This document shows positions 1-4,445 of a stretch of 4,445 nucleotides of DNA, in pieces; position 1 is the stretch's first letter, and each line of letters begins with the position of its first letter. The stretch lies in assembly GCF_030384885.1 (NCBI RefSeq), contig NZ_CP128616.1; one strand, given 5' to 3'. Made by a program: the position numbers and the translations under genes. The DNA is from Escherichia coli (lineage in GTDB: Bacteria > Pseudomonadota > Gammaproteobacteria > Enterobacterales > Enterobacteriaceae). Below the pieces are notes generated by a model, which had not been told where the DNA came from, ran no database searches, and saw only the letters and a program-made list of their open reading frames with translations.

Positions 1-262
1 AACAGTGAGCCATGTAGATGGTTGGAATGGCCTTCCTCAATACGAAATCAGGGGAAATAAAATCTACAGGACAGTGAGCCATGTAGATGGTTGGAATGGT
101 CTTCCTCAATACGAAATCAGGGGAAATAAAATCTACAGGACAGTGAGCCATGTAGATGGTTGGAATGGTCTTCCTCAATACGAAATCAGGGGAAATAAAA
201 TCTACACAACAGTGAGTCATGTAAACGGTTGGAACGGTCTTCCGCAATATGAGATCAGATAA
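1..262 (+). CDS. 3' portion of a small tandem-repeat protein (5'-partial in window; appears to continue from 4426-4445 across a circular junction); hypothetical
   Basis: Frame is open from position 2 to TAA at 260-262. Encodes VSHVDGWNGLPQYEIRGNKIYRT three times plus a diverged shorter copy. Differences between copies are mostly synonymous (GGC/GGT, AGC/AGT, AAT/AAC, CCT/CCG, TAC/TAT, GAA/GAG, AGG/AGA) against two amino-acid changes (R to T, D to N), which argues for selection on the protein. Confidence 0.6.
   Translation, partial: TVSHVDGWNGLPQYEIRGNKIYRTVSHVDGWNGLPQYEIRGNKIYRTVSHVDGWNGLPQYEIRGNKIYTTVSHVNGWNGLPQYEIR
2..259 (+). repeat. 69-bp tandem direct repeat, about 3.7 copies (units starting at 2, 71, 140, 209); in-frame coding repeat
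   Basis: Units 1-3 are near-identical (one GGC/GGT difference); unit 4 has eight substitutions. 69 bp = 23 codons, so the repeat is in frame. Confidence 0.9.
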
Positions 263-294
263 TTTGCGGGGCAAACCCTGCAAAAAGAAATCAT

Positions 295-324
295 ATTTAC
301 CATAACATCTGTATTGTACGCACC
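295..324 (-). other. cer-like XerC/XerD site-specific recombination core (plasmid multimer resolution site)
   Basis: Reverse complement of 295-324 is GGTGCGTACAA-tacagatg-TTATGGTAAAT. Both 11-bp arms match the ColE1 cer XerC and XerD arms as I recall them (GGTGCGTACAA / TTATGGTAAAT) with an 8-bp central region, as in cer. Confidence 0.8.
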
Positions 325-520
325 GTTAAAACGCGCTCAGCGCGATTCTGGCGCAAAAACCGTAAAAAGGGATGTTTTCCCCGGGGTAAACCGGAAAAAT
401 GCGTCAGGATTGTTTTCAGCGCGTTGCATGACTATGCATGAAACTGAATGGCAATCGATCCGGGCGCGTCCGCTGTCCCTGAGGCTTATTTTTGGCAGTT
501 TTCTTTCTGTCTGCGTCACA
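325..520. promoter_or_regulatory. Putative cer accessory region (ArgR/PepA side), with a candidate ARG-box-like dyad at 425-440
   Basis: Lies on the XerC-arm side of the core, where cer accessory sequences sit. tgcatgactatgcatg at 425-440 loosely resembles an ARG box (TNTGAATWWWWATTCANW). Extent and ARG box are inferred, not matched to a reference. Confidence 0.35.
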
Positions 521-558
521 TTCCATGCCAGAACACATCCGTCAGCAACGACATTCAA

Positions 559-780
559 CAGCCCACCATTAGCCCACACACAAAATACCGATGGGCACAC
601 CGATGTATCATAAAAATTTATCCGTTATATTTCATACAAATAAGAGGCCACCATCAGCCCACTCTATTAGCCCACAAAACGCCCACACTTTTGCTATCAC
701 TATGATTATCAATATAAAACCCACAAAAGTGGGCTGATGATGGGCTAACTGTGGGCGTAGAAGCCCATCATCAGCCCACC
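559..780. repeat. Array of GCCCAC/GTGGGC hexamer motifs (at least 9 copies) with AT-rich spacers and a perfect 17-bp inverted repeat (729-745 / 763-779)
   Basis: GCCCAC at 561, 572, 657, 670, 681, 773; GTGGGC at 729, 751; GCCCAT/ATGGGC variants at 740 and 763. Spacings of 11, 13, 11, 22, 22 bp. gtgggctgatgatgggc (729-745) is the exact reverse complement of gcccatcatcagcccac (763-779). Confidence 0.7.
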
Positions 781-1021
781 ACATCCGACAAAATAGAATT
801 TTTTGCCAGATAAACACCACTATAACGCACTGAATTTAAAGTAAAATCACGCAAAACGCAGTTTTGCGACAGGTGTGGTAAATGCAGGTCAGAGGAGAGG
901 GGAATTTCAGGCGCGGAGCCGGTCCTGGTTCGGGCTACAGGACTCTCAGAAAAAGCGAATAAATTTGCGCTGGCCGTCAGAGCATTACGCCGGGGTATCG
1001 GGGTGAAACCCTGAGCAGGAG

Positions 1022-1061
1022 GTAATTGTAATAGCGTCACGGGTGACGGTATTACAATTAC
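1022..1061. repeat. 19-bp near-perfect inverted repeat (palindrome) with 2-bp centre
   Basis: gtaattgtaatagcgtcac gg gtgacggtattacaattac; arms are reverse complements with one mismatch (G/G at 1034/1049). Confidence 0.8.
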
Positions 1062-1411
1062 ACATCCTGTCCTGTGTCAGGCAGCCGGATACGGTCGTCC
1101 TGGTGGCAACAGTCGGGCAGGGGGTACAACTGTACCCCGTCACATCCGCAAAAGATTTACGGCACGAAACAGGAGCGACGCAACAACTGCCGGTAACACG
1201 ACCCCATGAACGGGACAGGATGTGTAATCGTATAACCGCGCACGCACGTTCATCCGATTACAACCTGGTCAGGGCTTTACCCCGACACCCACGATGTGAT
1301 GAACGGATGAACATAAAACAACCGGAAAAACGCTCACTGTCCAGGCAAAGAACGGAACACGGCATAATCACATGATGCTGAATACAGAGACAGAACGGAG
1401 AACGACAGAAG

Positions 1412-2440: not shown

Positions 2441-2512
2441 GCAAGAGATTACGCGTACAGAGCACGGATCTCAAGAAGATCGTAAGAAGAAAGTTAACAT
2501 GAGTGTTTTTAT

Positions 2513-2558
2513 CCCTCAAAAAGAAGGCTTCTATAAATAGAAGCCTTCTTTTTGAGGG
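2513..2558. terminator. 46-bp perfect palindrome / strong hairpin; likely bidirectional terminator between the higA 3' end and the RNAII promoter
   Basis: ccctcaaaaagaaggcttcta taaa tagaagccttctttttgaggg; 21-bp arms are exact reverse complements. T-rich sequence follows on the + strand; higA stop lies 26 bp away on the - strand. Confidence 0.65.
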
Positions 2559-2583
2559 ATAACTTATATTTTTTTAAAAAAAA

Positions 2584-2940
2584 TCATGCAATAGCATGTT
2601 TCTTCTCAGAATTATCAACAATGTGTTTCCTTTCTATGATTTCATGAGCGGGAATCACTCTGTCTATTTCTTCTTGCAATCGAGGGCTACTAGTAACCTC
2701 CCATAAATCAACAGACTGCTGTATATTTAGCCAGAACTTTGCAGTGGTATTGAAGGCTTTAGCCAACCTAAAAGCCATATCGGTAGACAGCTTTCTATTA
2801 TTGTTAACTAAAGCACTGGCAGAGTTTCTATGCACATTCAACATTTCAGCCAAGTCATTGATTTTTAAACCACTTGGTTCGAGATATTCATAAAGAATAA
2901 TATCCCCTACAGTTGATGGCTTTCTAGTTGCTTGGGACAT
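2584..2940 (-). CDS. higA: HigA-family antitoxin (XRE-type helix-turn-helix), 118 aa
   Basis: Translation ...TVGDIILYEYLEPSGLKINDLAEMLNVHRNSASALVNNNRKLSTDMAFRLAKAFNTTAKFWLNIQQSVDLW... has the pattern I recall for HigA/VapI antitoxins (PG.IL.EEFLEP.GL...LA..LGV.R......NG.R.I....A.RLA..FG.....WLNLQ). AGGAG sits 6 nt upstream of the ATG. Downstream of a HigB-family gene on the same strand. Confidence 0.85.
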   Translation of the reverse strand: MSQATRKPSTVGDIILYEYLEPSGLKINDLAEMLNVHRNSASALVNNNRKLSTDMAFRLAKAFNTTAKFWLNIQQSVDLWEVTSSPRLQEEIDRVIPAHEIIERKHIVDNSEKKHAIA

Positions 2941-3142: not shown

Positions 3143-3460
3143 CTATCGGTAATCATGTGGATCGAGATACAAATCCTCGATTCCGTTTTCACCCCACTTA
3201 AATATTAAGCGGTACTTCTCATTCACCCGTATGGATGAATACCCTGTCAATGGAGGGTTGAGATTCTCAAATCGGTTTCCCGGGGGAGACCGCAAATCTC
3301 CAACTTTATCAGCAGCATTCAGCATATCCAGCTTGCGACCTAATGAAGCACTAATCGCAGTTGGAATCTTTCGATTGGCTTTACCATATTTGTAAAACTG
3401 GTATAGCCAATCGTCTCGAAACTGAATGCGGCAATCATCATGTTCATGATCTTGCTGCAT
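3143..3460 (-). CDS. higB: HigB-family toxin (RelE/ParE superfamily, plasmid maintenance system killer type), 105 aa
   Basis: C-terminal region ...DLRSPPGNRFENLNPPLTGYSSIRVNEKYRLIFKWGENGIEDLYLDPHDYR matches the family signature I recall (DLRSPPGNRLE.L.G.R.GQ.SIR.N..WRL.F.W.......I.DYH). GAGGT RBS 9 nt upstream of the ATG. Toxin precedes antitoxin, as in hig loci. Confidence 0.85.
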   Translation of the reverse strand: MQQDHEHDDCRIQFRDDWLYQFYKYGKANRKIPTAISASLGRKLDMLNAADKVGDLRSPPGNRFENLNPPLTGYSSIRVNEKYRLIFKWGENGIEDLYLDPHDYR

Positions 3461-4335: not shown

Positions 4336-4364
4336 AACCATAAGGCAGCATCAAAACGGCATTC

Positions 4365-4380
4365 ATTTACCATAACATCC
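4365..4380 (+). repeat. Copy 2 of the 16-bp motif ATTTACCATAACATCC (exact XerD-arm match, no convincing XerC arm)
   Basis: Reverse complement reads ...ggatg TTATGGTAAAT. The 11-bp arm is identical to the cer XerD arm; the flanking candidate XerC arm matches cer at only about 5 of 11 positions. Lies 46 nt upstream of the ATG at 4426. Confidence 0.7.
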
Positions 4381-4425
4381 GTTAACTGCGGCCTTGTCAT
4401 AAAAGAAATGGATATTGGAGACAAT

Positions 4426-4445
4426 ATGAGCAATAAGATCTATAG
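4426..4445 (+). CDS. 5' end of the tandem-repeat protein gene (3'-partial in window; continues in frame at position 1 if the molecule is circular)
   Basis: ATG at 4426 with GGAG 6 nt upstream; encodes MSNKIY then R from the junction codon (4444-4445 plus position 1), followed by TVSHVDGW... at 2 onward. The repeat unit sequence itself continues across the junction (aataagatctatag|a versus aataaaatctacagga). Confidence 0.6.

What the first reader, a model, noticed from the sequence alone, without database searches (positions are those of the whole stretch)
559..780. Phased GCCCAC motif array with AT-rich spacers and a perfect 17-bp inverted repeat: iteron-like or oriT-like cis element with no cognate gene in cis
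At least 9 copies of GCCCAC/GTGGGC in about 220 bp with spacings near 11 and 22 bp (helical phasing), interleaved with AT-rich segments, plus a 17-bp perfect inverted repeat around a 17-bp spacer. This architecture resembles iteron origins, centromere-like sites or transfer origins, yet the plasmid replicates by the ColE1 mechanism and encodes no Rep, Par or relaxase. It could be a trans-acting target for a protein from a co-resident plasmid or the host, for example for mobilisation, or a binding array for one of the small plasmid proteins.
Basis: partly seen in the sequence, partly recalled or inferred. Interest (0 to 1): 0.7.

Follow-up and report, generated by a model that had tools for sequence, protein, structure and literature searches.

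The report
Borrowed F-plasmid transfer origin, TraM-site array
The GCCCAC repeat array is the accessory-protein (TraM) docking part of an F-plasmid-type origin of transfer that this small ColE1 plasmid carries without any transfer genes, so that a large F-like conjugative plasmid can move it between cells. This kind of hitch-hiking is already known, but this version uses a recognition motif that I did not find described.

Summary
There are 8 exact GCCCAC/GTGGGC hexamers in 559-780, against 0.21 expected from local dinucleotide shuffles. Four one-mismatch copies add to these, most are 11 bp apart, and there is a perfect 18-bp inverted repeat.

It is not an iteron origin or a centromere. It is the traM-proximal half of an F-like (MOBF/MPF_F) oriT.

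Fourteen conjugative F-like plasmids carry a collinear GCCCAC array between the traM start codon and the nick site. Overall identity to the window is only about 60%, but 85% of half-site columns are invariant against 35% of the other columns.

The TraM alleles co-vary with the motif:
- MPRQHIY goes with GCCCAC.
- MPRQNVY goes with GCACYGTAA.
- MPKIQTY goes with GANTC.
- F's MAKVNLY goes with A(G/C)CG(G/C)T.

A distant metagenomic traM that starts MPRQHIY also sits behind GCCCAC pairs. Sister small plasmids carry the GCACYGTAA-type oriT at the same position.

The plasmid is of the pEC156 type: a ColE1 replicon with cer, rop, an orphan F-type oriT and IncI-type oriTs (991-1075 and 1209-1290). 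Binding and mobilisation are inferred, not shown. Interest is modest: a new specificity allele of a known kind.

The parts
560..577 (+). Half-site pair 1 (AGCCCACCATTAGCCCAC). In conjugative homologues it lies about 20 bp upstream of the traM start codon, the position of F sbmA/sbmB.
   Evidence: The pair aligns with GGCCCACATTTAGCCCAC, which directly precedes traM in CP099183, CP098932, CP061262 and CP057208.
598..645 (.). AT-rich spacer 1. The core CATAAAAATTTATCCGTTATATTTCAT is invariant among the small-plasmid relatives. A weak promoter-like site on the minus strand (635 to 607) sits where P_traM would be.
   Evidence: The promoter-like match is not above chance (1 found against 0.9 expected).
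646..686 (+). Cluster of four direct half-sites: GGCCAC 646, GCCCAC 657, GCCCAC 670 and GCCCAC 681.
   Evidence: All four are conserved in register in the conjugative plasmids.
687..718 (.). AT-rich spacer 2 (ttttgctatcactATGATTAtcaatataaaa). The ATGATTA core is also present in the type-2 (GCACYGTAA) oriTs.
719..779 (.). Palindromic half-site cluster: ACCCAC 719 followed by a perfect 18-bp inverted repeat (729-746 and 762-779). Its right arm ends about 97 bp from the predicted nick, as the F sbmC inverted repeat does (about 96 bp). The central half-site (751-756, inside spacer 747-761) is flipped here relative to pEA04.6, pEA5_4 and all the conjugative homologues.
780..850 (.). AT-rich segment between the array and the nick region. 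In F this position holds sbyA (TraY) and IHF site A. This assignment is inferred from position only.
   Evidence: Alignments with F and pSE11-2. The site names come from PMC4743918 and PMC2504302.
851..869 (+). Inverted repeat GCAAAAC-GCA-GTTTTGC(G) just 5' of the nick, homologous to F GCAAAAACTTGTTTTTGC.
870..885 (+). Nick region ACAGGTGT|GGTAAAT. The predicted nic lies between 876 and 877 on the + strand. The 26 nt on its 5' side (851-876) are identical in CP099183.
   Evidence: Alignment with F and with the conjugative homologues. The F nic sequence TTTGCGTGGGGTGT|GGTGCTTT is from PMC2504302.

Best explanation
Window ~557-885 is an orphan F-like (MOBF12, MPF_F family) origin of transfer. 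This is a set of 12 GCCCAC-type half-sites, arranged as pairs 11 bp apart and as one palindromic cluster, and it most likely forms the binding sites (sbmA/B/C equivalents) for the ribbon-helix-helix protein TraM of one allelic class of F-like plasmids. That class has the N-terminal beta-strand MPRQHIY (Arg3, His5, Tyr7).

Proposed mechanism:
- When such a conjugative plasmid shares the cell, its TraM tetramers would bind the array and bridge it to the coupling protein TraD.
- TraY and IHF would bend the AT-rich DNA at ~780-850.
- TraI would nick the + strand at GGTGT|GG (876/877) and pilot that strand into the recipient.

The small plasmid encodes none of these proteins and would be mobilised purely in trans.

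What is shown: the homology, the position of the homologues, the collinearity, selective conservation of the motif, and co-variation with TraM alleles.

What is inferred: TraM binding, nicking and actual mobilisation.
For: 1. Sister small plasmids carry, at exactly this position between cer and the conserved nick segment, a different array built on GCACYGTAA. That array is 80-100% identical to the traM-to-gene X intergenic region of 49 conjugative MOBF/MPF_F plasmids, for example pSE11-2.

2. The window's nick segment aligns with the F nic region.

3. Fourteen conjugative F-like plasmids of 42-174 kb, plus one other record, carry a collinear GCCCAC array between the traM start and the nick.

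4. Identity to these plasmids is about 60% overall. However, 56 of 66 half-site columns are invariant against 49 of 141 other columns (Fisher p = 6e-12).

5. In 50 kb of CP099183 that includes the whole tra region, 7 of 25 exact motifs fall in the 226 bp between nic and traM. None lies in the traJ-traY gap.

6. The TraM N-termini co-vary with the repeat motif: MPRQHIY with GCCCAC (4 plasmids), MPRQNVY with GCACYGTAA (3 plasmids), MPKIQTY with GANTC, and F's MAKVNLY. Published work assigns specificity to residues 3, 5 and 7 of this beta-ribbon and describes motifs 12 bp apart with inverted-repeat symmetry (PMC3159463). The GCCCAC-type TraM aligns in register with the solved R1, F and pED208 TraM RHH domains.

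7. A distant AT-rich metagenomic contig (L111) again pairs a traM starting MPRQHIY with GCCCAC/GTGGGC pairs 11 bp apart and an F-type nic.

8. There is a precedent. pEC156 is a ColE1-type plasmid with cer, rom, an F-type oriT and an R64-type oriT, both shown to work in mobilisation (PMC4743918).

9. The natural deletion variants pE200164_3 and L116 lose 560-668 but keep the palindromic cluster and the nick.
Against: - No binding, nicking or transfer was tested.
- The window's array is only about 60% identical to the known conjugative GCCCAC-type oriTs, whereas the type-2 copies in small plasmids reach 100%. The direct donor lineage is therefore not in the databases searched.
- None of the 15 complete E. 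coli genomes that carry this small-plasmid array also carries a detectable GCCCAC-type conjugative oriT.
- Assigning the motif to TraM rather than TraY rests on position, co-variation and its absence from the traY promoter region. It does not rest on a footprint.
- The column-conservation test is partly circular, because the alignment is anchored by the motifs.
- The central half-site is inverted in this plasmid, with unknown effect.
Confidence: 0.8

Rival explanations
1. It is a decaying relic. An F-like oriT was captured in the past, no helper present today uses it, and it persists only by hitch-hiking on the ColE1 backbone.
For: Identity to known conjugative versions is about 60%. None of the 15 host genomes has a matching conjugative oriT. 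GCCCAC-type conjugative plasmids are rare, found in 2 of 5426 RefSeq E. coli genomes and 15 PLSDB records. A 109-bp deletion variant exists. The plasmid has two other oriTs to rely on.
Against: Half-sites are far better conserved than spacers (85% against 35%). The 26 nt on the 5' side of the nick are identical to the conjugative versions. The array is 96-100% conserved across plasmids with unrelated cargo from E. coli and E. albertii. The deletion removes only the part that in F serves traM autoregulation.
Confidence: 0.13
2. It is a TraM sponge or interference element. The multicopy array titrates TraM of a co-resident F-like plasmid and so modulates, probably lowers, the helper's own transfer or traM expression, whether or not the small plasmid is transferred.
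For: There are twelve half-sites on a multicopy ColE1 replicon. In F, the sbmA/B sites autoregulate traM (general knowledge of the F system, PMC3159463). The left half-site pair has been kept although it is not needed for transfer in F.
Against: There is no direct evidence. The intact nick region next to the array argues that transfer is the selected function. This effect would most likely be a side effect rather than an alternative to the main explanation.
Confidence: 0.05
3. It is an iteron-type replication origin or a partition centromere served in trans by a Rep or Par protein of another replicon. These were the reader's other options.
For: Short repeats in helical phase flank AT-rich DNA, and no cognate gene lies in cis.
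Against: Every homologue found outside small plasmids lies between traM and an F-type nick site, never beside rep or par genes. The repeats are 6-bp half-sites, not 17-22-bp iterons. The array is contiguous with an F-type nick region.
Confidence: 0.02

Closest known systems
oriT of plasmid F and F-like plasmids (R1, R100, pED208): nic, IHF A, sbyA, IHF B, sbmC, sbmB, sbmA, traM
   Same: The order of parts matches: a hairpin plus GGTGT|GG nick, an AT-rich segment, a palindromic site about 97 bp from the nick (the place of sbmC), more AT-rich DNA, then repeat clusters up to the traM start. The repeats are short motifs on one helical face with inverted-repeat symmetry, as described for TraM sites (PMC3159463). 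Homologues lie between traM and the SLT transglycosylase gene.
   Different: The repeat motif is GCCCAC, not A(G/C)CG(G/C)T (F) or GANTC (R1, pED208). Spacing is 11 bp rather than 12 bp. The matching TraM has Arg3/His5 and scores below the NCBIfam TraM cut-off (81.8 against 104 bits). The bases at -6 to -8 from the nick differ from F (ACA against TGG).
pEC156 and relatives (pColG, pKPN2, pSe-Kan): ColE1-type plasmids with orphan F-type and R64-type oriTs (PMC4743918)
   Same: Both have a ColE1 replicon with RNAI and rom, a cer site, an F-type oriT that includes the TraM, TraY and IHF site region, and an R64-type oriT, with no relaxase. In pEC156 both oriTs were shown to be functional.
   Different: The F-type oriT of pEC156 is 86.5% identical to F itself. 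The one here belongs to a different TraM-site class and has no close conjugative parent in the databases searched. This plasmid also has a second, inverted IncK2/Z-type oriT.
Type-2 orphan oriT of sister plasmids (pSCU-478-2, pRHB33-C12_5/_6, pRHB15-C23_5) and the oriT of pSE11-2-like IncFIC/FII plasmids
   Same: It occupies the same position in the same small-plasmid backbone, has the same nick segment (TTTTGCGACAGGTGT|G) and the same layout, with an ATGATTA-centred AT-rich core.
   Different: The motif is GCACYGTAA, its TraM starts MPRQNVY (47% identical to the GCCCAC-type TraM), and it is 80-100% identical to many conjugative plasmids.

Membership tests
F-like (MOBF12) origin of transfer | A nick region homologous to F (..TTTGCG....GGTGT|GG..), preceded by a short hairpin | tested here: met
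   Window 851-885 aligns with F and with 6 F-like plasmids. G342-G347 and the hairpin columns are invariant. The F nic sequence is from PMC2504302.
F-like (MOBF12) origin of transfer | In conjugative plasmids, homologous sequence lies between traM and the SLT transglycosylase gene (gene X), next to a full F-type tra operon with TraI | tested here: met
   This holds for CP099183, CP098932, CP061262 and CP057208. The full tra operon traM to traI to traX is annotated in CP099183.
F-like (MOBF12) origin of transfer | Clusters of short repeated motifs for TraM (sbmA-C), on one helical face and with inverted-repeat symmetry, specific to the plasmid's TraM allele | tested here: inconclusive
   The sequence pattern, position and co-variation with TraM residue 5 are met. 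Protein binding itself cannot be tested here.
F-like (MOBF12) origin of transfer | TraY (sbyA) and IHF sites between the nick and sbmC | not tested
   An AT-rich segment, 780-850, occupies the right position, but no motif model was applied.
F-like (MOBF12) origin of transfer | Nicked by the cognate TraI and transferred by the F-type T4SS | not testable with these tools
   This needs mobilisation and nicking assays.
pEC156-type ColE1 plasmids with orphan oriTs | A ColE1 replicon (RNAI/RNAII, Rom) and no relaxase | tested here: met
   RNAI scores 91 bits. Rop is annotated in the relatives. No relaxase, Rep or Par family was found in the ORFs.
pEC156-type ColE1 plasmids with orphan oriTs | An R64/IncI-type oriT in addition to the F-type oriT | tested here: met
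   Window 991-1075 matches the region just upstream of nikA in IncI-gamma/K1 plasmids at 89%. Window 1209-1290 matches the same place in IncK2/Z plasmids at 91.5%.
Iteron-type replication origin | Direct repeats of 17-22 bp bound by a Rep protein whose gene is adjacent in at least some relatives | tested here: not met
   The repeats are 6-bp half-sites. All non-orphan homologues lie beside traM, none beside rep.
Partition centromere (parC/parS type) | A repeat array adjacent to a parAB or parMR operon in relatives | tested here: not met
   In CP099183 the parM/parR genes are 12 kb away from the array, and the array lies in oriT.

The most novel reading that the evidence does not exclude
GCCCAC would be the recognition code of a so far uncharacterised TraM specificity class (Arg3/His5/Tyr7). 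That would make it a further TraM recognition motif beside A(G/C)CG(G/C)T and GANTC. The small plasmid's version, about 60% diverged from every sampled conjugative oriT, would then point to an unsampled lineage of F-like helper plasmids. In addition, the 15-17-bp spacer inside the perfect inverted repeat flips between near-identical plasmids. This reverses the central half-site (--+++ against ---++) and could act as a switch that changes TraM occupancy of the sbmC-like site.
Probability: 0.25. Interest if true: 0.5.

Novelty: new member of a known kind. Interest (0 to 1): 0.3.

Why it matters
It explains how a gene-poor 4.4-kb plasmid that encodes no relaxase can spread. The plasmid carries three orphan transfer origins, one F-like and two of the IncI complex, and can therefore use several kinds of helper.

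The F-like origin uses a TraM-site motif, GCCCAC, that goes with a TraM allele having His at the specificity position. This gives a natural four-way series: Gln5 with GANTC, Asn5 with ACCGGT-like sites, Arg3/Asn5 with GCACYG, and Arg3/His5 with GCCCAC. The series could be used to test how ribbon-helix-helix proteins read DNA and how relaxosome specificity partitions plasmid transfer networks.

For annotation, it shows that 'iteron-like' arrays in small ColE1 plasmids should be checked against traM-proximal oriT regions before they are called novel.

Tried and rejected
- **BLAST of the array itself.** Against plasmids (near and distant modes), phages and complete E. coli genomes it found only small ColE1 relatives, nothing in phages and nothing on chromosomes. 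The conjugative homologues are too diverged (about 60%) to be found this way. They were reached indirectly, through the allelic type-2 array and then the nick segment.
- **Rfam.** Nothing was found in the region except sub-threshold miRNA-like hairpin noise.
- **Origins of phage satellites.** I considered a P4, PICI or SaPI-type origin, where short repeats flank AT-rich DNA, and a terminase pac/cos site. I dropped these once the traM context was found.
- **A MITE with target-site duplication.** This idea came from the 11-bp direct repeats CACATCCGTCA (534-544) and CACATCCGACA (780-790) that flank the array. No empty site or inverted termini were found, and the repeats are absent from the conjugative and type-2 versions.
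- **Variant R64-type nick sites.** I asked whether those same flanks are variants of the R64 nick region (ACATCCTG, recalled from memory). This stays untested, and the F-type nick made it unnecessary.
- **Literature search.** Searches for GCCCAC with iteron, TraM or oriT returned nothing relevant.
- **Metagenome pattern scan.** 120 stretches were returned, mostly single chance matches. Seven were useful: L070, L108, L111, L115, L116, L120 and L121.
- **Promoter scan.** It gave one minus-strand site, not above chance.

Full report
**1. The observation**

The hexamer GCCCAC or its complement occurs 9 times in the window, against 2.0 expected, and no whole-window shuffle reached 9. Eight copies lie between 561 and 779. 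In 20,000 dinucleotide-preserving shuffles of 559-780 alone, the mean was 0.21 and the maximum 4.

Four further one-mismatch copies (646, 719, 740, 763) are conserved in relatives. That gives 12 half-sites, most of them 11 bp apart within clusters. The inverted repeat has 18-nt arms (729-746 and 762-779) that are 100% complementary, with 15 nt between them. The natural unit is AGCCCAYCATYAGCCCAC.

**2. The replicon**

RNAI lies at 2333-2433 (91 bits) and Rop at 1412-1615. The only family match among the remaining ORFs is HigA. A metagenomic contig (L120) is a circular permutation of the window at 98.5% identity, so the window is one complete 4445-bp circle.

A cer-like Xer site lies at about 293-520. 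I recognise it by eye from the XerC/XerD core GGTGCGTACAA-TACAGATG-TTATGGTAAAT on the minus strand. This rests on my own knowledge, not on a tool result.

**3. Where else the array occurs**

Direct BLAST found the array only in small ColE1-type plasmids of E. coli and E. albertii. These were 8 PLSDB records and 16 RefSeq records in 15 genomes, with none on chromosomes and none in phages.

These plasmids share cer, the array, about 630 bp, rop and ori, but carry unrelated cargo such as an ATPase pair, NYN plus HTH genes, a NACHT gene or HigBA. No cis-encoded protein is therefore a consistent partner. All are typed 'mobilizable' without having a relaxase.

**4. The real oriTs downstream**

Window 991-1075 matches the DNA immediately upstream of nikA in IncI-gamma/K1 plasmids (89%). 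Window 1209-1290, in inverted orientation, matches the same place in IncK2/Z plasmids (91.5%). These are two orphan oriTs of the IncI complex.

**5. The key step: an allelic array**

Sister small plasmids (pSCU-478-2, pRHB33-C12_5/_6, pRHB15-C23_5) carry a different array of similar length at exactly the same place, between cer and a conserved segment (window ~800-1000). It is built on GCACYGTAA.

That 'type-2' array is 80-100% identical to a segment of 49 large conjugative MOBF/MPF_F plasmids. In pSE11-2 the segment lies between the start of traM and the SLT transglycosylase gene, which is the F-type oriT.

The homology runs on into the window's 795-900 segment. This segment aligns with the F nick region:
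- F: GCAAAAACTTGTTTTTGCGTGGGGTGT|GGTGCTTT (nic sequence from PMC2504302)
- Window: GCAAAACGCAGTTTTGCGACAGGTGT|GGTAAAT (851-885)

**6. Finding GCCCAC-type conjugative plasmids**

A search with the nick segment found F-like plasmids whose arrays did not match type 2. In CP099183 the 313 bp between traM and the nick contains GGCCCACATTTAGCCCAC, then GACCACAATCAGCCCACACAAAAGCCCACAATTAGCCCAC, then GTGGTCTAAAGGTGGGCCAATCAGCCCATTTTTAGACCAC. This is collinear with the window's array.

Fifteen PLSDB records carry this oriT type. Fourteen are conjugative plasmids of 42-174 kb from E. coli and E. marmotae.

Identity to the window is only about 60%. Even so, 56 of 66 half-site columns are invariant against 49 of 141 other columns (p = 6e-12). 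The caveat is that the motifs help anchor the alignment.

In 50 kb of CP099183, which includes the whole tra operon, 7 of the 25 exact motifs lie in the 226 bp between nic and traM. None lies before traY.

**7. Which protein binds the motif**

The TraM N-termini co-vary with the motif:

| TraM N-terminus | Motif | Plasmids |
|---|---|---|
| MPRQHIY | GCCCAC | 4 plasmids |
| MPRQNVY | GCACYGTAA | 3 plasmids |
| MPKIQTY | GANTC | pESA135_2; its array is full of GATTC/GAATC |
| MAKVNLY | A(G/C)CG(G/C)T | F |

Wong et al. (PMC3159463) showed three relevant things:
- Residues 3, 5 and 7 of the TraM RHH beta-ribbon make the base contacts.
- F and pED208 differ mainly at residue 5.
- The sites are motifs 12 bp apart with inverted-repeat symmetry, and 11 bp also works for a single tetramer.

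The GCCCAC-type TraM aligns in register with the solved R1, F and pED208 TraM N-domains. It falls below the NCBIfam TraM cut-off (81.8 against 104 bits).

A distant AT-rich metagenomic contig (L111) gives independent support. It combines a traM starting MPRQHIY with GCCCAC/GTGGGC pairs 11 bp apart and an F-type nick.

**8. Mechanism, inferred**

TraM of an MPRQHIY-type F-like helper would bind the array and couple it to TraD. TraY and IHF would act in 780-850. TraI would nick at 876/877 on the + strand. The plasmid would be mobilised in trans.

pEC156 is the published precedent. It is a ColE1-type plasmid with cer, rom, an F-type oriT that contains sbmA-C, sbyA and IHF sites, and an R64-type oriT, and both oriTs were functional in mobilisation assays (PMC4743918).

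The natural deletion in pE200164_3 and L116 removes 560-668 by recombination between two AGCCCAC copies. It keeps the palindromic cluster and the nick.

**9. What argues for caution**

- Nothing here was tested at the bench.
- The closest conjugative oriT is about 60% identical, whereas type-2 orphan copies reach 100%.
- None of the 15 complete genomes with this small plasmid has a detectable GCCCAC-type conjugative oriT, and that oriT type is rare (2 of 5426 genomes).
- One farm (RHB47) yielded both the small plasmid and a GCCCAC-type conjugative plasmid, but in different isolates.
- The element could therefore be a relic, although the selective conservation of half-sites and the identical 26 nt 5' of the nick argue against that.

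**10. Verdict**

The finding is real. It is correctly suspected to be a trans-acting transfer element, but its boundaries are wrong and its kind is not novel. It is a new specificity allele of the F-like oriT, carried as an orphan on a pEC156-type plasmid.

Noticed in passing
window 747-761 (between inverted-repeat arms 729-746 and 762-779): The spacer of the perfect inverted repeat appears as its exact reverse complement in pEA04.6 and the 96.2%-identity group of plasmids, for example the O111 plasmids. It is also in that orientation in pEA5_4 and in all the conjugative homologues. The window therefore carries a derived, flipped state that reverses the central GCCCAC half-site. The cause is presumably inverted-repeat-mediated inversion, and the effect on function is unknown.
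   Followed up: partly
window 991-1075 (+) and 1209-1290 (inverted): There are two orphan oriTs of the IncI complex. The first matches the region upstream of nikA in IncI1, I-gamma and K1 plasmids (inverted repeat GGTAATTGTAATA..TATTACAATTAC followed by CACATCCTGTCC). The second matches the same place in IncK2/Z plasmids. With the F-like oriT, the plasmid has three transfer origins in about 750 bp.
   Followed up: partly
window ~293-520 (minus strand core at ~299-331) and ~4363-4390: A cer-like XerC/XerD site with its accessory region directly abuts the array. Homology among relatives with different cargo starts at about 295, inside the Xer core. A second partial XerD-arm-like sequence (ATTTACCATAACATCCGTT) lies at the other end of the cargo region, which suggests cargo exchange at Xer sites.
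   Followed up: no
window 2-258, ORF 4426..4445 joined to 1..262 across the circle: A 69-bp tandem repeat of 3.7 copies at 94% identity encodes a 93-aa protein made of 23-aa repeats (KIYRTVSHVDGWNGLPQYEIRGN). It has no NCBIfam match.
   Followed up: partly
window 2509-2562: A perfect 54-bp palindrome (ctcaaaaagaaggcttctataaatagaagccttctttttgaggg) lies between the RNAII promoter side of ori and higA. It is probably a bidirectional terminator. It produced only spurious miRNA-family hits in Rfam.
   Followed up: no
window 2584-2940 (-) and 3143-3460 (-): This is a HigA antitoxin (TIGR02607, 93 bits) with a RelE/HigB-like toxin ORF. About 200 bp of non-coding DNA separates them, which is unusually long for a toxin-antitoxin pair. 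The pair is annotated as HigA and RelE/ParE in relatives.
   Followed up: no
L006 (pE200164_3) 1563-1714 and L116: A 109-bp deletion lies exactly between two AGCCCAC copies (window 560 and 669). It is found in a RefSeq plasmid and independently in a metagenome contig, which suggests repeat-mediated deletion within the array.
   Followed up: partly
L015 (NZ_CP083264.1) 5760-6240: A 102-kb IncFIC plasmid contains a cer site plus a type-2 array with no traM beside it, and the segment is cut off at 6238. It looks like a small ColE1-type plasmid fragment integrated next to a retron-type defence locus.
   Followed up: no
window 534-544 and 780-790: The direct repeats CACATCCGTCA and CACATCCGACA flank the array in the small plasmids only. 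They are absent from the conjugative and type-2 versions. They may be a recombination scar from the capture of the oriT, or they may be chance.
   Followed up: partly
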